This document shows positions 3,087 through 19,485 of a DNA stretch of 64,000 nucleotides, in pieces. This DNA comes from a virus, in IMG/VR virus record IMGVR_UViG_3300032236_001259, positions 6,940-70,939 of that record. One strand, written 5' to 3'. Numbering within the stretch: the stretch's first letter is position 1; each line of letters begins with the position of its first letter. A model generated the notes under the pieces. That model did not search any database, was not told the origin of the DNA, and saw nothing but the letters and a program-made list of their open reading frames with translations. The position numbers and the translations under genes were made by a program.

Positions 3087-3668
3087 TTATTTTTGTATGT
3101 TCCAAATTTCAATTGGTAGATATTTTCGGCAAATGTCTGCTGTTAATTTTTGGTTTTCTTTATAAGTACTACAATAAGCAACAGCAGCATCATAAACAAT
3201 AGCACTAGCAGCAGCAGCGTCAGCAGAAGCAGCCCAAGCAGCAGCACCAGCAGCACCAGCAGCATAAGCAGCAGAATAAGCAGCAGCAGCAGCAGTAACA
3301 GCACGAGCGGCACCATTAGAAGCATAATAAGCAGCACGAGCGGCACCATCAGCAGCATCCCAAGAAGCACGACCAGCAGCACCACAAGCAGCGTCCAATT
3401 CTTCTCTACTAATCTTACCTTCTCCAAAAGCAATGGCTGCATCGACAGCTTTTAAGCTTCTTTCGTCTTTCATTAAGTGCCGAACCGTGTTAGCGCAGTG
3501 ACCTTTTGCTAAAGTTAGAAGCTGTATATCTTCGGGATTAGTTCTTTGGAATAGCCACAACGGCCAGTCACCTCTATTACAAGTAGAGTAAGCCTCCTCC
3601 CATGACTTGCCAGTTGCCCAGTATTTTGCATCTTCGCAAGCATTTAGTTTCTCTAATAGTTCTTTCAT
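3087..3668 (-). CDS. Ala-rich paralogue 1 (Imm5-like helical family)
   Basis: MKELL..L.AC.. / DERSLKAVDAAIAFGEG / Ala-rich core / NQKLTADICRKYLPIEIWN, shared by five copies. Confidence 0.75.
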   Translation of the reverse strand: MKELLEKLNACEDAKYWATGKSWEEAYSTCNRGDWPLWLFQRTNPEDIQLLTLAKGHCANTVRHLMKDERSLKAVDAAIAFGEGKISREELDAACGAAGRASWDAADGAARAAYYASNGAARAVTAAAAAYSAAYAAGAAGAAAWAASADAAAASAIVYDAAVAYCSTYKENQKLTADICRKYLPIEIWNIQK

Positions 3669-12998: not shown

Positions 12999-13014
12999 TA
13001 ATTTTTATATTAAG

Positions 13015-13102
13015 TAGTCAGGACAGGATTTGAACCTGTATATATCGTTCCTCTTTTCTGTGTTTTCTTGAGACGATAGCCGTACCATTCCGCCACCTGA
13101 CT
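13015..13102 (-). ncRNA. tRNA-like element (pseudo-tRNA with Leu-like D region)
   Basis: Acceptor AGTCAGG/CCTGACT; T arm ACAGG-TTCAAAT-CCTGT; TGGCGGAATGGTA D region; non-canonical central stem TATCGT/ACGATA. Confidence 0.7.
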
Positions 13103-14347: not shown

Positions 14348-14377
14348 AAAAGCCCCGAAGTAGACACTTCAGGGCTA
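14348..14377 (-). terminator. Intrinsic terminator ending the ncRNA transcript
   Basis: AGCCCTGAAG-TGTCTA-CTTCGGGGCT-TTTT on the minus strand. Confidence 0.7.
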
Positions 14378-14400
14378 ACAATTGCTAATCCCAAAACTAG

Positions 14401-14488
14401 CAGGGAAAGCGGGATTCGAACCCGCTACCCGTTTTATATCAGTGGAGCATACCAATATATCACAAACCTCTCCTTTAGAGTTTTCCCT
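14401..14488 (-). ncRNA. tRNA-like element
   Basis: Acceptor AGGGAAA/TTTCCCT; T arm GCGGG-TTCGAAT-CCCGC; D-like CTCT-AAAGG-AGAG; elongated non-canonical anticodon arm. Confidence 0.7.
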
Positions 14489-14489
14489 T

Positions 14490-15215
14490 ACCACCCATAT
14501 TAAAAAACACTGAATAGTAAAATGTAATCATGGCAACAGTAAGTTTATTTTTAAGGTTCATCAATTCACTATCTATGGATATTATAGCAAAGCTCTCCCT
14601 TATTTATCCTTCTTACGGGAATTAACCGGTATAGCCATTTGTCCGGTTGTGTATTTGATTACATTTACATCTCTATTATTATTGCGTACATATCAGCGGA
14701 GACGTACCCGCTTAACACATTCTACATTATAGGCAGAACCCAGTCTGGTCCTATTAGAGGTAGGAAGATTTATCGCTTTACTGCTTTGCCGACTTAAAGC
14801 GTGACAAGTTACTACGGCTTTTAGAGCATCTCGCTACCACGCGAGACTCTGCAGTTTATTCCTCTGACTCTACGAATTGCTACGAAGGCTGAGACAATAT
14901 GATACTTCAAAGGACTCATTCGGATATACTAAGGCTTTGGCTTTGCTGTTGTCAGCATTACCCACACAATACCTGCCTGTTCTTCCGAGACAAATCTTCT
15001 TTTGCCCTTATACCTCTCATACCATGAAGGCACATCAAGCTCTATCCGTGAACAGTTGACGGCTACTAACAGACCCGTTATCTGGGTGTAACTTAATACA
15101 CCCCCTCACGTCCGGCTTATCGGACATCCACGCACTTGGCTGGTTTCACTTACACTCAAAGAACTGGGATGAATAACAGCAATACACGCTTATGTGTACG
15201 TCTGTAACTTATTCG
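14490..15215 (-). ncRNA. Candidate large structured ncRNA (~725 nt)
   Basis: No credible ORF, raised GC, many local and long-range helices, flanked by tRNA-like elements. Confidence 0.55.
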
Positions 15216-15262
15216 TTCTTAGCCCACGACTCGAACGTGGCGTGTCCCATCTGATGCTAAGA
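15216..15262 (-). ncRNA. Minimal tRNA-like element (acceptor stem plus T arm)
   Basis: TCTTAGC-[15 nt containing GG]-CCACG-TTCGAGT-CGTGG-GCTAAGA. Confidence 0.6.
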
Positions 15263-15294
15263 TTTGAAATATGGATACGGCGGCGGGTTAATAA

Positions 15295-15852
15295 TTAATT
15301 GTTTAATAACGCTTTTGCTTTCTTCTGCTCTATGCGGCGAACCTTCGCAGCCTCCGCGTTGAGAGCAATACGAGCCTCTAACTGCTCATTGAATACACTT
15401 GATTTTGCGTCCTCTCTAACGAAGCGTGAAGCATATCTAACATTTCTCAACTGTGCTTTAGCCTGTGCAGCTATCTGTTCAGTAGTGAATGCTGTTTGAT
15501 CTTTGAACACGCCGTTCTTATCAGTCGACTTCATAAACTCCAATGCTGCATCCTTATCAGACATAGCAAAGTTTGACATGATGGTTTCACGTATGATACC
15601 AAAATCCAATCGGAAGTTAAGAAAGTCCTGTGAACATAACTTCTTTGCCAATGCTGTTGGTAATTCAAAATCCCCGATGGTTACCTTTGGTGCATCATAC
15701 TGTGAATTCATTACACCGAATGCGAAATGTAAAACTACACCGATTGCTCTCTTTAACGTTTCACCTTCAAACGTTTCTTCTATCGGTTTAATGAATATCG
15801 CTTTCTTACTAGATGAAAAATCATTCTCAATCTTAATAGATACTGTTTTCAT
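15295..15852 (-). CDS. Hypothetical protein with basic helical C-terminus
   Basis: 185-aa ORF between the triple promoter and the ncRNA cluster. Confidence 0.65.
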   Translation of the reverse strand: MKTVSIKIENDFSSSKKAIFIKPIEETFEGETLKRAIGVVLHFAFGVMNSQYDAPKVTIGDFELPTALAKKLCSQDFLNFRLDFGIIRETIMSNFAMSDKDAALEFMKSTDKNGVFKDQTAFTTEQIAAQAKAQLRNVRYASRFVREDAKSSVFNEQLEARIALNAEAAKVRRIEQKKAKALLNN

Positions 15853-15917
15853 AACTTTAAATGGTTGTTATGCCACCGTATGCCATATTTCAAAGAACTT
15901 ATCTATACTCATGTGTT

Positions 15918-16156
15918 GTTAGGGCTTATCCTAACCGCACAACAAAGATAAAGGTACATTCTGTTAACGTGGTGTTAATTTCATTCTCACTGTTAGGGCT
16001 TATCCTAACCGCAAAACAAAGATAAGGGTACATTCTGTTAACACTATGTTAAAACCTAAAAAGAACTAAATGTTAAACAAAGGTTAAAATTTGGTAGGGG
16101 GCTTATCCCCGACCGCAAAACAAAGATAAGGGTACATTTTGTTAATAAAAAGTTAA
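15918..16156 (-). repeat. Three ~50-bp repeats, each with a Bacteroidota -7 promoter and an ATAAGC-loop hairpin
   Basis: Units at 15918, 15992 and 16097; CAAAGATA (=TATCTTTG) at 15943, 16017 and 16121. Confidence 0.8.
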
Positions 16157-16258
16157 GACTTTTTGTACCTACGAAAACCGTCGTAGGCTGGGGATAGCGC
16201 AGCTTACTCTTCCTATCGCGCCCCATTTTACAGCCATCCTCAATATATACATATATAC

Positions 16259-16330
16259 GCCCCCCGCTACGCTCCCCCACATATTCGCTCCCATACTCGC
16301 CTCCCCATACTCACCCCATACTCACCCACT
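16259..16330. repeat. C-rich low-complexity tract with CCCATACTC repeats
   Basis: CCCATACTC at 16290, 16304 and 16315 plus degenerate copies. Confidence 0.7.
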
Positions 16331-17287: not shown

Positions 17288-18433
17288 CTAGTGGCTGTCG
17301 CCCACGTCTTTTTTCTCTGAATAAATACTGTAGTCGGGGTTTATTACCTTGGCTACCTTTGATCTCTCCCCGGTGTGGTGCTTGATCACTATACCCTCTT
17401 CCGGTATCTTGGTGCCTGGGATGAAGTTATTCATCACAAATATGTCCTGTATAAACTGATTCCATTCTCCATAATAGAGTACTTTCACGTAGGGTAACTC
17501 AAGGATAATCTCGATTATAATCTTAGACATCGTAGGTGCTTCGTATTCACCGTTAATTTTAACGTCAAACCCCGCAAACTTAATATCTTTCAAACCATAG
17601 TCGTAGTTTTTTTGAATGCCCGCACCGTATATCTCTCCGTATAGTATTAATCCCTGGCCGATTACGGAAACCGATTCTCTACGGACCGCTTTCCACAGCT
17701 TTTCTTCGATCTTGTATTTGTCGGCTATTTCGTACCACACATTTGTGTCGTAAAACCCCTGTGAGTCCGAGCCCTTCTCTACGTTGTGAGATCCAACCAC
17801 AAATTCGTATTCGCTCCAATACCAAGATTCGGGTAAAAAATTAAACTTCTTGCTCACAAATATTTTTATTCTGTCTAGCAAAGAGACTTTCTTCTTTTTG
17901 ACTATACCGTACCTTGCGTTGGTACCGTGGATCTTACGAGTGATCTCAACCTCGTCCTCTTCGGTAAAAATTCCTGGAACATTCTTTATGTTCGGGAATT
18001 TGTAATAGATATGGAAGTTGGGATTCTCATCGTATCGAACTTTCTTACCTGAAGCTAGCTGAATTTGTTTTGCTGGTGGCTCGTATTTGAACACGCCTAA
18101 TATATTCATCACATCGCTGCCTTCTTTTAGTTTGTTGTTATTGCCGTAACTAAAAGGGATAATCAGACACTCTGAATATACGCCTTTTAATTTTATGGTT
18201 CTAACTCTGTTACCGCTCCTTAAATAATTAGTAACGTCTAGATCTTCTGCTAGCTTTTGAGGTATGACAGCGTCAGTGGTTGCACATATAACTAAGTCTC
18301 CGGCTTGGTAATTACCCTTCTGAGTTATACAGTTCCATCCGTTGATGACTGCGAGTTCTATTTTGTCTGCACCTTCTATTGGTTTTATTTCTTTTATTTC
18401 TGCTACGAAGCAGCAACTGTTTTGATTTTCCAT
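17288..18433 (-). CDS. ATP-dependent RNA ligase, DRB0094/Rnl5 family
   Basis: N-terminal IEGADKIELA OB-like domain; motif I KIHGTN; YGEIYG, FDV, EGIVIK, KVIN. Confidence 0.85.
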   Translation of the reverse strand: MENQNSCCFVAEIKEIKPIEGADKIELAVINGWNCITQKGNYQAGDLVICATTDAVIPQKLAEDLDVTNYLRSGNRVRTIKLKGVYSECLIIPFSYGNNNKLKEGSDVMNILGVFKYEPPAKQIQLASGKKVRYDENPNFHIYYKFPNIKNVPGIFTEEDEVEITRKIHGTNARYGIVKKKKVSLLDRIKIFVSKKFNFLPESWYWSEYEFVVGSHNVEKGSDSQGFYDTNVWYEIADKYKIEEKLWKAVRRESVSVIGQGLILYGEIYGAGIQKNYDYGLKDIKFAGFDVKINGEYEAPTMSKIIIEIILELPYVKVLYYGEWNQFIQDIFVMNNFIPGTKIPEEGIVIKHHTGERSKVAKVINPDYSIYSEKKDVGDSH

Positions 18434-18496
18434 TTTTAAAAGTTTATTCTGATAATATTTGGATTGATGCCGTATTAATCTTTTTTAATTGTTTTT

Positions 18497-18898
18497 TCAC
18501 AAAGATACTTCAAAGCGATTTTTCATTTTGTATAGGGTATCTTCAGGCACTCCGTGAATATTAATACCACTGTGTCTGTTCTCTACAATGACACTGAACA
18601 CTCTGTATCCATACTGCTCTGCTAATTTGTAATAGGCTTCCATCTCCCATTCTTGTGTAAACGTATTAGATACCACGATATTAGGAATTGCTAACGAATT
18701 CATTCTTCTTTCAACTTCGTTTCTGCACCATTCGTGCGCTTGTCTTAACTTTGTAGCATCGAAATTATAGTTGCCGTCTGTGTCGTAAAAGAATTTATCC
18801 GCTTCACATATAGCGCTCTCTTCTGAGACGATGTGCGCTAATGAGCTCTTACCGCTTCCAGGCAATCCCCTCAATATTATTAAATTTTTAGTATTCAT
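18497..18898 (-). CDS. P-loop kinase (AAA_33, polynucleotide kinase-like)
   Basis: LRGLPGSGKS, EAD, VVSNT, HGVP. Confidence 0.8.
   Translation of the reverse strand: MNTKNLIILRGLPGSGKSSLAHIVSEESAICEADKFFYDTDGNYNFDATKLRQAHEWCRNEVERRMNSLAIPNIVVSNTFTQEWEMEAYYKLAEQYGYRVFSVIVENRHSGINIHGVPEDTLYKMKNRFEVSL
18500..18507 (-). promoter_or_regulatory. Bacteroidota -7 promoter element
   Basis: TATCTTTG upstream of the RNA ligase. Confidence 0.5.
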
Positions 18899-19485
18899 CG
18901 CACGTTTGTTTTTTCGTTGTGGTGATCGACAAAAGCTATTTCTCTCTTGTCTAAGATATTTTTAACTTCGGCGAATTTGAAAGGCCTATACTCTCCAAAC
19001 AATCTATATGCGTTATCCACTCCTACGTCCATGCTCTTACCCCAAGGACTATGTTCTGCAGACGCGTGAGAGTGACCGTAGAGGTGCCAATAACCTTTGT
19101 GACTGCCTTCCCATATTCTGTGAGAATAGTGCGACATGAATATGTGTTGATTTTCTACAGTTACGTTTAGCGTATCGCCTGTAAAAGTAAAGTGATCTTT
19201 GTACAATTGTTGTTTTGGATCGTGGTTACCTTTGATCCAAAATAAATTCTTACATACAATTCTCGCTCTCCAATCAGGAGTCAAATCATGTCCACCGAAA
19301 CAAAAATCACCCAAAAAGAATAAATTATCGTCCTGTCCCACCATATTATTTATATTGTTCAACAGAGTATCATTCATCTTTTGAACAGAATCAAAAGTCC
19401 TGTATCCAGACTTCCACTTGCTAGTCTTACTACTCGCAATATTAGCGTGATTTAGGTGTAGATCTGAGGTGAAAAATGTATTCAT
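18895..19485 (-). CDS. Calcineurin-like metallophosphoesterase
   Basis: SDLH, LGDF, GNHD, HLYGHSH, DVGVD. Confidence 0.9.
   Translation of the reverse strand: MNTFFTSDLHLNHANIASSKTSKWKSGYRTFDSVQKMNDTLLNNINNMVGQDDNLFFLGDFCFGGHDLTPDWRARIVCKNLFWIKGNHDPKQQLYKDHFTFTGDTLNVTVENQHIFMSHYSHRIWEGSHKGYWHLYGHSHASAEHSPWGKSMDVGVDNAYRLFGEYRPFKFAEVKNILDKREIAFVDHHNEKTNVR

What the first reader, a model, noticed from the sequence alone, without database searches (positions are those of the whole stretch)
14348..15262. Candidate novel ~725-nt structured RNA punctuated by two tRNA-like processing elements
Seen: 14490-15215 has no credible ORF and higher GC than its surroundings. It contains nested helices: 14517-14530/14656-14668 (13 bp with one bulge), 14756-14762/15011-15017 plus 14764-14771/14992-14999 (long-range), 14774-14780/14795-14801, 14823-14850, 14944-14957, 15084-15103, 15110-15125 and 15183-15198. 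On the minus strand it is directly preceded by a 46-nt acceptor+T-arm mini-tRNA, directly followed by an 88-nt tRNA-like element, and then a terminator. Established: RNase P and 3'-end nucleases recognise the acceptor/T-arm stack (mitochondrial tRNA punctuation, mascRNA), and large phage RNAs such as GOLLD and ROOL occur near tRNAs. Inference: host tRNA-processing enzymes excise a large, possibly undescribed RNA from an early transcript.
Basis: partly seen in the sequence, partly recalled or inferred. Interest (0 to 1): 0.88.

Follow-up and report, generated by a model that had tools for sequence, protein, structure and literature searches.

The report
New tRNA-like-bracketed large phage RNA
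The gene-free stretch is a conserved, folded non-coding RNA of about 0.73 kb from uncultured freshwater phages, held between two tRNA-shaped elements that lack an anticodon; it matches no catalogued RNA family and its job is unknown.

Summary
Observation confirmed. Window 14402-15262 (minus strand) has no ORF under any stop-codon reading and no Rfam family at threshold.

Seven metagenome contigs, found through the upstream 185-aa gene, carry the same collinear unit:
- a 46-50-nt acceptor/T-arm mini tRNA-like element;
- a roughly 0.73-kb RNA;
- a cloverleaf tRNA-like element without an anticodon loop.

The RNA is better conserved than the neighbouring gene: 85-91% against 69% nucleotide identity between two lineages. 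The alignment folds better than column-shuffled controls (z -5.6) and has more compensatory pairs, 52 against 33.8 +/- 4.6. G-U pairs fit only the minus strand.

It is not GOLLD or ROOL by covariance model. However, it shares their niche (a phage tRNA/RNA-repair island) and GOLLD's layout of a conserved 3' half and a variable 5' half.

Excision by RNase P and 3' nucleases at the tRNA-like borders is plausible but untested; no RNA data were available. A single-sequence fold is no better than shuffles, and the long-range helices are weakly supported.

A sequence look-up found no look-alike elsewhere in this scan. Analogous but unrelated new phage RNAs were noted before.

The parts
15918..16131 (-). 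Three tandem promoter repeats. Each has a TATCTTTG box (fits TAnnTTTG, recalled as the Bacteroidota -7 consensus) followed within about 10 nt by a hairpin with the hexaloop AUAAGC (15918-15935, 15992-16009, 16097-16110). Probable start of the transcript that carries the RNA.
   Evidence: Sequence read. The hairpin scan found 5 AUAAGC hairpins on the minus strand, all within 15108-16110. The same promoter layout is present in L086, L088 and L082.
15295..15852 (-). 185-aa protein gene of unknown function. It lies directly upstream (32 nt) of the mini tRNA-like element and is co-inherited with the RNA in all 8 loci.
   Evidence: ORF. No Pfam or PHROG family. AF2 model with pLDDT 86.2 but no fold match at E<=0.001. 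Small family: 31 clusters among 1.8 billion representatives.
15217..15262 (-). 5' mini tRNA-like element: a 7-bp acceptor stem (UCUUAGC/GCUAAGA), a 15-nt linker and a T arm (CCACG-UUCGAGU-CGUGG). It has no D arm and no anticodon arm.
   Evidence: Descriptor hit and fold. Present in 7 of 7 homologous loci; the descriptor itself hit it in 5 of those 7, missing L087 and L088. Compensatory changes in the acceptor and T stems (helices 1 and 3). In L084 it is replaced by a different sequence with the same architecture.
14825..15216 (-). Variable 5' domain of the large RNA. It holds hexaloop hairpins at 15182-15199 (AUAAGC), 15108-15127 (AUAAGC) and 15084-15103 (UUAAGU). It also holds invariant blocks at 15144-15164 and 15057-15067, a long irregular arm at 14860-15059, and a hairpin at 14825-14849 with the conserved loop RUGGUA.
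   Evidence: Alignment A2. Helices 7, 9, 10 and 13-21. Hexaloops. The hairpin 14825-14849 keeps its fold with different stems in 4 lineages and in variant contigs of runs X2-X4.
14521..14824 (-). Conserved 3' core of the large RNA: 70-82% identical between the window and the other lineages, and 95-100% between lineages A and B. It holds covariation-supported hairpins at 14729-14754, 14669-14703, 14624-14648 and 14565-14591. There are two candidate pseudoknots: 14634-14638 with 14530-14534, and 14662-14665 with 14521-14524.
   Evidence: identity; 66 pairs, 96.7% paired, 12 with changes on both sides against 2.0 +/- 1.2 in shuffles and 0-2 when slid; 7 stem changes between L087 and L088, all pair-preserving. 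Short stacks such as the pseudoknots are near chance level on their own.
14489..14520 (-). A/U-rich tail between the core and the 3' tRNA-like element. In lineages A and B this position holds an 8-bp G+C-rich hairpin followed by a U run (terminator-like); no such site was found here in the window.
   Evidence: Alignment, terminator scan of L088 and of the window.
14402..14488 (-). 3' tRNA-like element: 7-bp acceptor stem, D arm with GG in its loop, T arm with loop UUCGAAU, and a 13-bp central arm in place of an anticodon arm. No CCA is encoded.
   Evidence: Descriptor hit and fold. ARAGORN and the Rfam tRNA model do not call it. All 6 homologous loci that reach this far have a counterpart; the descriptor hit 4 of these and missed L085 and L086, whose insert exceeds its spacing limit. 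The counterparts have 4 of 7 acceptor pairs and 2 of 5 T pairs changed on both sides (read). Their central arms are of different length, including a 124-nt insert in L085 and L086.
14351..14376 (-). Intrinsic terminator (11-bp stem, U run) that closes the unit.
   Evidence: A look-alike terminator lies after an extra 74-aa ORF in L088.

Best explanation
This is the gene for a previously uncatalogued large structured RNA of uncultured freshwater phages. The promoter type (a recalled motif) suggests Bacteroidota hosts.

Proposed mechanism:
1. A leftward transcript starts at the repeated promoters near 15940-16130.
2. It runs through a 185-aa ORF and continues without a terminator into about 860 nt of non-coding RNA: a mini acceptor/T-arm element, a roughly 725-nt multi-hairpin RNA with a variable 5' domain and a strongly conserved 3' core, and an anticodon-less cloverleaf.
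3. It ends at the terminator at 14351-14376.
4. The two tRNA-shaped elements act as handles for the host's tRNA-processing enzymes. RNase P cuts at the 5' side of each element, and RNase Z or exonucleases trim at the 3' side. The large RNA is thereby cut away from the mRNA and released with defined ends near 15216 and 14489.
5. The released RNA then works as a folded RNA or RNA-protein particle, in the same genomic niche as GOLLD and ROOL.
6. Its lineage-specific hexaloop hairpins recur at the 5' end of the same transcript. I read them as binding sites for a phage factor, with the co-inherited 185-aa protein as first candidate.

Shown here: conservation, strand, local fold, the tRNA-like shape of both borders, and absence from Rfam.

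Inferred: transcription as one unit, cleavage at the borders, one molecule rather than several, and any partner.
For: Homologues: nhmmer finds the non-coding stretch in 7 of 7 metagenome loci that encode a relative of the 185-aa protein. E-values are 3.7e-48 to 2.5e-54 in 6 loci, and 1.1e-5 in L082, which is cut by the contig end. Each locus has a gap of about 0.9-1.1 kb without ORFs of 50 aa or more on the gene's strand.

Selection: between lineages A and B the gene is 69% identical at the DNA level. The RNA is 85-91% identical and its 3' half 95-100%. The window against the others gives 55-58% for the gene and about 70% for the 3' half.

Structure:
- RNAalifold gives 260 pairs with 93.7% of cells paired. 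52 pairs change on both sides, against 11.6 +/- 2.9 in partner shuffles and 9-15 when slid.
- Refolding 25 column-shuffled alignments gives energy -321.3 +/- 8.7 against -369.8 observed, and 33.8 +/- 4.6 compensatory pairs against 52.
- Curated 3' core: 12 of 66 pairs are compensatory, against 2.0 +/- 1.2.
- L087 and L088 differ at 17 positions in the 3' half. Seven of these lie in one stem and all preserve pairing.

Strand: 268 G-U cells on the minus-strand RNA would become mismatches on the other strand, where only 34 would be G-U. Consensus energy is -369.8 against -314.7. Variant contigs from three further runs change 14831 and 14843 so that pairing survives only as G-U on the minus strand.

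Borders: both tRNA-like elements are kept in every lineage with compensatory stem changes. The mini element is swapped for a same-shaped cassette in L084.

No terminator-like site was found between the ORF and the mini element.

Hexaloops:
- In the window, 5 AUAAGC hairpins lie on the minus strand, all within 15108-16110.
- In the lineage A loci L085 and L086, UUUGGU occurs once in the leader and twice in the RNA.
- L082 has UUUAGU in its leader.

Niche: an RNA ligase, an AAA_33 kinase and a metallophosphoesterase lie 2-4 kb upstream. Of 6 related-phage loci scanned, 4 carry tRNA genes near the ligase gene, up to 25 in one locus, and one of these also a tmRNA.
Against: - The single-sequence MFE is not better than shuffles: z -1.07, with 2 of 20 shuffles as good.
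- Only about three independent lineages exist, and most compensatory changes come from one deep split. The window-to-others alignment of the 5' half is only about 50% identical.
- Within lineages A and B alone the signal is modest: energy z about -2.7, and 9 compensatory pairs against 5.6 +/- 2.2.
- In a strict enumeration, short covarying stacks are barely above chance: 27 against 18.1 +/- 5.3. The pseudoknots and every helix that joins the 5' and 3' halves are therefore unproven.
- The 27-pair helix that RNAalifold draws between the two halves has 1 compensatory pair and 9 pairs with broken cells (helix 8).
- In lineages A and B a terminator-like hairpin precedes the 3' tRNA-like element.
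- No CCA is encoded.
- No transcript data of any kind were available.
- The 185-aa protein has no recognisable RNA-binding fold.
Confidence: 0.55

Rival explanations
1. The stretch is not one RNA but a small cluster of separately made or separately cut stable RNAs. At the least there would be a 5'-domain RNA and a 3'-core RNA, plus the two tRNA-like RNAs. This would resemble the small stable RNAs in the T4 tRNA cluster, or the pairs of roughly 200-nt RNAs this scan noted among the tRNAs of other freshwater phages.
For: - Conservation is mosaic. L085 and L088 are 100% identical in the 3' half but 83% in the 5' half, while their neighbouring genes are 69.6% identical.
- No helix joining the halves has convincing covariation (helix 8).
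- A terminator-like hairpin lies inside the unit in lineages A and B.
Against: - The parts are collinear in the same order in all 8 loci.
- tRNA-like elements sit only at the two ends. The descriptor finds none inside, and no tRNA-family hit at E<=10 lies inside 14490-15215.
- The sigma-70 consensus scan gave no excess of promoter-like sites in the region: 12 found against 10.6 +/- 3.4 in shuffles. That scan does not cover other promoter types.
Confidence: 0.25
2. It is a very divergent GOLLD RNA, or another known large ornate RNA, that the Rfam model is too narrow to detect.
For: [quoted passage not shown] Freshwater origin.
Against: - The GOLLD model RF02032 scored 12 candidates in the whole 70.9-kb record, none at E<=10.
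- cmscan at E<=10 on the window region, on 6 homologous loci and on two short sub-windows lists no GOLLD, ROOL, OLE, group I/II intron or RNase P match.
- Here the tRNA-like elements are at the ends, not in a linker.
Confidence: 0.08
3. The conserved stretch acts in cis or as DNA: a 3' UTR that controls the 185-aa gene, a replication or packaging site, or the decayed remnant of a tRNA array.
For: - It lies in the slot where related phages carry tRNA arrays.
- It directly follows an ORF without a terminator.
- Part of the 3' core is invariant, so it says nothing about pairing (37 of 66 pairs never vary).
Against: - It is more conserved than the coding gene beside it, which decay would not give.
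- Compensatory and strand-specific G-U changes argue for an RNA fold.
- No repeats or tRNA remnants lie inside.
Confidence: 0.07

Closest known systems
GOLLD RNA (Rfam RF02032)
   Same: Large (about 0.8 kb) phage-encoded RNA of unknown function. It has a conserved 3' region and a variable 5' region, is found in lake metagenomes and near tRNA islands, and is sometimes covalently linked to tRNAs (passages read).
   Different: No match to the covariance model at E<=10. The tRNA-shaped elements here lack anticodons and sit at both ends rather than in a linker. Multimer formation is untested.
ROOL RNA (Rfam RF03087)
   Same: Large ornate phage or prophage RNA near tRNA islands, with multiple pseudoknots.
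   Different: No cmscan hit. The dedicated search found nothing, but its controls rang nowhere, so that call alone is uninformative.
MALAT1/MEN-beta with mascRNA/menRNA (Rfam RF01684)
   Same: A long non-coding RNA is directly followed by a small anticodon-less tRNA-like element. RNase P cleavage at that element makes the long RNA's 3' end (abstracts listed: PMC8457004, PMC11693755, PMC4824109). The 3' element of lineages A and B even aligns weakly to this model (21.3 bits).
   Different: That score is below the gathering score of 42.5, with E 2.5: analogy, not homology. mascRNA is eukaryotic and nuclear. Here a second element also marks the 5' end, and cleavage is untested.
Phage T4 tRNA-cluster stable RNAs (species 1/rnaC and species 2/rnaD); recalled, not looked up
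   Same: Non-tRNA stable RNAs of unknown function, co-transcribed with phage tRNAs and matured by the host tRNA-processing enzymes. They lie in a T4-like genome region that also encodes RNA ligase and polynucleotide kinase.
   Different: Those RNAs are about 120-140 nt, not 725 nt. No sequence comparison was made here.
Canonical tRNA (Rfam RF00005)
   Same: Both border elements have a 7-bp acceptor stem stacked on a 5-bp T stem with a UUCRANN loop. The 3' element also has a D arm with GG in its loop.
   Different: There is no 7-nt anticodon loop on a 5-bp stem. The mini element lacks two arms. Neither ARAGORN nor the Rfam tRNA model calls them.

Membership tests
GOLLD (RF02032) | Match to the family covariance model (conserved 3' domain) | tested here: not met
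   12 candidates in the 70.9-kb record were scored, none at E<=10. No GOLLD row.
GOLLD (RF02032) | About 800 nt, conserved 3' half, variable 5' half, phage-borne, next to tRNAs | tested here: met
   (3' half 70-100% identical, 5' half 48-85%). (tRNA niche). This is a resemblance only.
ROOL (RF03087) | Match to the family covariance model | tested here: not met
   No ROOL row. One search found nothing, but its controls were silent.
Canonical tRNA (RF00005) | Acceptor stem plus T arm with T loop | tested here: met
   for both border elements in the window. Present in the homologues by alignment and folds.
Canonical tRNA (RF00005) | Anticodon arm (5-bp stem, 7-nt loop) and detection by tRNA finders | tested here: not met
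   ARAGORN calls none at these sites in the window or in 7 loci. The Rfam tRNA model at gathering hits only 13015-13102. Central arm: 13 bp in the window, 3-nt loop in A and B, 124-nt insert in L085 and L086.
mascRNA-menRNA (RF01684) | Match to the family model at gathering score | tested here: not met
   21.3 bits against 42.5, E 2.5, in 3 of 6 loci. No hit in the window.
mascRNA-type processing signal | RNase P cleavage 5' of the tRNA-like element releases the upstream long RNA | not testable with these tools
   No RNA run holds the stretch. Only contigs could be laid.
tmRNA (RF00023) | tRNA-like domain formed by the 5' and 3' ends around a tag reading frame | tested here: not met
   Only a 17-nt local T-arm match: 15.8 bits against 47. 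ARAGORN finds no tmRNA.
Group I/II introns, RNase P RNA, OLE | Match to any Rfam model of these classes | tested here: not met
   No such row at E<=10. group-II-D1D4-1 (RF01998) gave 0 matches in the own record.
Bacterial Y RNA with Ro60 | tRNA-like module plus a neighbouring Ro60 (TROVE) gene | tested here: inconclusive
   No TROVE domain among the 20 neighbouring ORFs scanned and no Y-RNA row. I did not check which Y-RNA models Rfam 15 holds. The lead came from the listing of PMC4201824 (abstract only).

The most novel reading that the evidence does not exclude
The unit is a self-contained phage RNA machine of a new class.
- One transcript carries a protein gene and a roughly 0.73-kb RNA.
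- Two anticodon-less tRNA mimics make the host's own tRNA-processing enzymes cut the RNA free.
- The freed RNA is then bound, through its lineage-specific hexaloop hairpins, by the co-inherited 185-aa protein, or it self-assembles as GOLLD and ROOL do.
- The same protein feeds back on identical hairpins at the 5' end of its own mRNA.

This would be the first bacterial-virus counterpart of the MALAT1-mascRNA design, used on both ends of an RNA.
Probability: 0.15. Interest if true: 0.85.

Novelty: new variant of a known kind. Interest (0 to 1): 0.66.

Why it matters
Large ornate phage RNAs such as GOLLD and ROOL are abundant, form cages, and still have no known function. Each further, unrelated family in the same tRNA/RNA-repair niche narrows what that niche selects for.

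This family adds three testable handles:
- two conserved tRNA mimics that should define the RNA's ends through RNase P and RNase Z;
- a natural swap of one mimic for another of the same shape (L084);
- hexaloop hairpins that change in step between the RNA and the leader of a co-inherited protein gene, which points to a specific partner.

If the border cleavage holds, it shows that phages use tRNA punctuation to mature a large non-tRNA RNA.

Tried and rejected
**Searches for more homologues that found nothing usable**
- blastn (distant mode) of the region against GenBank phages: no match.
- blastn, nhmmer and an nhmmer profile against 80 loci around RNA-ligase relatives: 0 hits.
- Covariance model R1 of the 3' core against those 80 loci: only a 14.6-bit hit in L078, which lies in coding DNA.
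- R1 against 30 whole related phage records: only 10-12-bit fragments.
- Seven DNA pattern scans:
  - (viral contigs): 0 hits.
  - (viral contigs): 2 hits, both in coding DNA and taken as chance.
  - (genome contigs): 0 hits.
  - (genome contigs): 2 hits, in a Pirellulales MAG and an Archaeoglobus MAG. No nhmmer match; taken as chance.

**The 185-aa protein family**
- Absent from viral contigs by pattern search.
- Absent from 50 related phage records (that call had no positive control).
- Absent from GenBank phages by tblastn with 4 family members.
These would be the best extra sequences for covariation.

**Expression**
No RNA holder was listed for the stretch. Only DNA contigs could be laid.

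**Protein function**
No Pfam or PHROG family, no usable Atlas hit, and no fold match at E<=0.001 in PDB or BFVD.

**Readings rejected**
- Coding under another genetic code.
- A small conserved ORF.
- tmRNA.
- A common minihelix class in related phages: only 1 of 225 descriptor hits in 80 loci is short.
- Loop-receptor complementarity for the hexaloops: checked by eye only, not consistent across lineages.
- I considered a covariance model of the mini element and dropped it, because MAFFT could not align the L084 cassette in register.

**Papers and supplements**
Supplements were not opened. The supplements of 10.1101/2024.12.08.627333 may list GOLLD variants that I could not compare.
Full report
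**What the window is**

The window is part of a 70.9-kb IMG/VR virus record estimated to be 43% complete. The flagged stretch lies in a block of leftward genes. Two to four kb upstream on the same strand lie:
- an RNA ligase (17288-18433; phrog_968 E 2.4e-56; Pfam RNA_ligase);
- an AAA_33 kinase (18497-18898);
- a metallophosphoesterase (18895-19485).

Together these form an RNA-repair set.

The ligase gave 254 confirmed relatives in viral contigs, of which 80 loci were kept. I scanned six of these for tRNAs:
- L023: 25 tRNA genes
- L022: 12
- L012: 5
- L015: 3 plus a predicted tmRNA
- L078: none
- L002: none

The finding therefore lies in what is the tRNA island of this phage group.

**Checking the observation**

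- All six frames of 14380-15300 contain all three stop codons, and the longest open stretch is 72 codons.
- GC content is higher than in the downstream DNA but equal to that of the upstream gene.
- ARAGORN finds one tRNA in the window (13014-13102) and nothing at the two flagged borders.
- I wrote a descriptor: a 7-bp acceptor stem, a 5-bp T stem and a T loop T[TG]CRANN. It hits exactly three places in 128 kb of sequence (both strands), all on the minus strand: 15217-15262, 14402-14488 and 13016-13102.
- A strong terminator follows at 14376..14351.
- Folding the 726 nt alone is unremarkable: z -1.07 on the minus strand and -1.37 on the plus strand.

**Known families**

- Rfam 15 at gathering thresholds finds only the tRNA at 13015-13102.
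- At E<=10 the region gives 12 sub-threshold rows. The only one with a small E-value is a 17-nt T-arm match to tmRNA.
- Shorter sub-windows and six homologous loci give nothing better. The best is a 21.3-bit, E 2.5 alignment of the homologues' 3' element to mascRNA-menRNA.
- Dedicated searches of the whole record with GOLLD (RF02032; 12 candidates scored) and ROOL (RF03087) found nothing at E<=10. The ROOL call had silent controls.

**Finding relatives**

The region has no blastn match in GenBank phages and none in the 80 ligase loci.

The 185-aa gene just upstream (15295-15852) has five relatives in the 5.8-billion-protein collection. An alignment of the six proteins found no locus in viral contigs. 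It found 7 loci in metagenome contigs, at 45-50% protein identity.

In all 7 loci nhmmer finds the non-coding stretch downstream of the gene. E-values are 3.7e-48 to 2.5e-54 in six loci, and 1.1e-5 in L082, which ends early. Each locus has a gap of about 0.9-1.1 kb without ORFs of 50 aa or more on the gene's strand.

The eight sequences fall into three lineages:
- the window;
- lineage A (L082-L086);
- lineage B (L087, L088).

The order of parts is the same in all: mini tRNA-like element, variable 5' domain, conserved 3' core, A/U-rich tail, cloverleaf tRNA-like element.

Further pattern scans, a covariance model of the core and protein searches found no other member. The family is therefore rare in what I could reach. 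The protein family has 31 clusters among 1.8 billion representatives.

Contigs from four sequencing runs hold the stretch or near relatives. Three of the runs are labelled freshwater metagenomes, and none is an RNA run.

**Is it under selection, and as RNA?**

Conservation:

| Comparison | Gene (nt identity) | RNA | RNA 3' half |
|---|---|---|---|
| Lineage A vs B | 69% | 85-91% | 95-100% |
| Window vs others | 55-58% | not given | about 70% |

Substitutions show no codon periodicity.

Structure:
- The RNAalifold consensus has 260 pairs, with 93.7% of cells paired.
- 52 pairs change on both sides. Partner shuffles give 11.6 +/- 2.9, and sliding the partners gives 9-15.
- That structure was derived from the same alignment. 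I therefore refolded 25 column-shuffled alignments. Energy was -321.3 +/- 8.7 against -369.8 observed (z -5.6), and compensatory pairs were 33.8 +/- 4.6 against 52.
- In the well-aligned 3' core, a curated set of 66 pairs is 96.7% paired, with 12 compensatory pairs against 2.0 +/- 1.2.

The cleanest single case is L087 against L088. They differ at 17 positions in the 3' half. Seven of these lie in the stem at window 14565-14591. They form three double changes and one wobble, and none is disruptive.

The hairpin at 14825-14849 keeps a RUGGUA loop on different stems in the window, L083/L084, L085 and L087. Variant contigs of runs X2-X4 alter it by six substitutions and nearby indels, so that a 9-bp stem replaces a 6+4-bp stem. 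Two of those changes pair only as G-U on the minus strand (read).

Overall, 268 G-U cells fit the minus-strand RNA, against 34 on the opposite strand.

**Limits of the structural evidence**

- There are only about three lineages.
- The 5' half of the window aligns at about 50% identity.
- Within A and B alone the signal is modest.
- A strict enumeration of short perfect stacks is barely above shuffled alignments: 27 against 18.1 +/- 5.3 with at least two compensatory pairs, and 2 against 1.0 +/- 1.15 for at least three in at least 5 bp.
- The candidate pseudoknots therefore remain candidates.
- The long helix that RNAalifold draws between the two halves has one compensatory pair and nine pairs with broken cells.
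- Nothing shown here proves that the 725 nt are one molecule.

**The borders**

The mini element has these parts:

| Lineage | Acceptor stem | T arm | Between them |
|---|---|---|---|
| Window | UCUUAGC/GCUAAGA | CCACG-UUCGAGU-CGUGG | 15-nt linker |
| Lineage A | UCCUAGU/ACUAGGA | AGCCG-UUCGAAU-CGGCU | linker with a 4-5-bp hairpin |

Lineage B has the same acceptor stem as lineage A. Its T stem needs two G-U pairs, so the descriptor did not call it.

L084 is otherwise 97-99% identical to L083. It carries a different sequence of the same three-part shape, with T loop UGCGAAC. This is a natural swap that argues for selection on shape.

The 3' element is a four-armed cloverleaf with GG in its D loop and a canonical T loop. 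Its central arm differs between lineages:
- 13 bp with a 7-nt loop in the window;
- a short stem with a 3-nt loop in A and B;
- interrupted by a 124-nt hairpin-forming insert in L085 and L086.

Between the window and A/B, 4 of 7 acceptor pairs and 2 of 5 T pairs differ on both sides (read). Neither element encodes CCA.

Such minihelices are unusual in this phage group. Of 225 descriptor hits in 901 kb of related loci, one has fewer than 30 nt between the acceptor strand and the T stem.

**Transcription signals**

Upstream of the 185-aa gene the window has three repeats. Each carries TATCTTTG, which fits TAnnTTTG (recalled as the Bacteroidota -7 box). Each is followed within about 10 nt by a hairpin with the loop AUAAGC. 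L086, L088 and L082 have the same layout with two repeats.

No terminator-like site was found between the gene's stop and the mini element, 32 nt downstream. I therefore infer one transcript running from these promoters to the terminator at 14351-14376.

In L088, a look-alike of that terminator lies after an extra 74-aa ORF. A second, terminator-like hairpin with a U run lies between the RNA body and the 3' element. Read-through there is an assumption.

**Hexaloop hairpins**

| Lineage | Leader hairpins | Hairpins in the RNA 5' domain |
|---|---|---|
| Window | AUAAGC, three times | AUAAGC twice, UUAAGU once |
| A | UUUGGU once in L085 and L086; UUUAGU on a 3-bp stem in L082 | UUUGGU twice |
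| B | UUAAAU on a 3-bp stem (read by eye) | UCAAAU, UUAAGU |

In the window, AUAAGC hairpins with at least 4 bp occur 8 times in 128 kb. Five are on the minus strand and all lie within 15108-16110.

Loops thus change together within a lineage while stems differ. That fits a shared, lineage-specific binding partner. The fast-evolving 185-aa protein that sits between the two sets of hairpins is the obvious candidate. However, its confident model (pLDDT 86.2) matches no known fold. This step is inference only.

**Comparison with what is known**

In size, niche and the conserved-3'/variable-5' layout the RNA resembles GOLLD as described in the passages I read. It fails the GOLLD model, so I do not file it there.

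The design, a long RNA ended by an anticodon-less tRNA mimic, works like MALAT1-mascRNA (abstracts listed). The weak model match is below threshold, so this is analogy.

Small stable RNAs matured with phage T4 tRNAs are a recalled precedent for non-tRNA RNAs in a phage tRNA operon.

Earlier notes of this scan:
- Other uncatalogued large RNAs next to phage tRNAs in other genomes are described.
- A sequence look-up found no look-alike of this one outside its own genome.
I checked both.

**Verdict**

This is a real, conserved, minus-strand structured RNA locus of a new family. It is bracketed by two conserved tRNA mimics. Release by tRNA-processing enzymes and action as a particle with a phage partner is the best current reading, but both are untested. 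I class it as a new variant of a known kind (large phage RNAs of tRNA islands), with interest 0.66.

Noticed in passing
window 13015-13102 (-): ARAGORN calls a tRNA-Ser (anticodon aga), and Rfam tRNA scores 48.1 bits with a 20-nt insertion after the anticodon stem. It shares the acceptor/T-arm descriptor with the two border elements.
   Followed up: partly
window 17288-19485 (-): RNA-repair set: RNA ligase (Pfam RNA_ligase and PHA02142 OB domain), AAA_33 kinase and metallophosphoesterase. It lies 2-4 kb upstream of the RNA on the same strand.
   Followed up: partly
window about 16180-16300 (-); L086 1770-1880; L088 270-370; L082 3290-3390: A non-coding block upstream of the promoter repeats is conserved between lineages by eye. 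It holds an AT-rich TATATA run, then a conserved stretch ending in a hairpin around CGACGGUUUUCGUAG. Function unknown.
   Followed up: no
L084 819-863: The mini tRNA-like element is replaced by an unrelated sequence of the same architecture: acceptor UUCCCUU/AAGGGAG, a small hairpin, and a T arm with loop UGCGAAC. The flanks are 97-99% identical to L083.
   Followed up: yes
L085 about 1720-1845; L086 about 3480-3600: A 124-nt insert that can form a long hairpin sits in the loop of the central arm of the 3' tRNA-like element. Its last bases repeat the bases before the insertion point (UAACA).
   Followed up: partly
L015 1333-1807: ARAGORN predicts a 475-nt phage-encoded tmRNA with a 25-residue tag, among tRNA genes beside the RNA-ligase gene of a related, complete 158-kb phage record.
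   Followed up: no
L035 2136-2187: The only other minihelix-type descriptor hit among 225 hits in 80 related loci. It is A/T-rich and may be chance.
   Followed up: no
L088 2445-2470 and window 14351-14376: The two terminators look alike in sequence. In lineages A and B a 74-aa ORF (no relative in the window by eye) lies between the 3' tRNA-like element and the terminator.
   Followed up: partly
run X1, record 2 (laid on window 14688-14819 and 15144-15162): The sample that holds the window's phage also holds a 1084-nt contig of a second, lineage A-like version of the RNA. Its loose ends match lineage A sequence by eye. At least two versions therefore co-occur.
   Followed up: partly
window 15144-15164 and about 15895-15905 (-): The invariant block GUUCUUUGAGUGUAAGUGAAA of the RNA shares AGUUCUUUGA with the leader just upstream of the 185-aa start codon, in the window and in lineages A and B. 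Meaning unknown.
   Followed up: no
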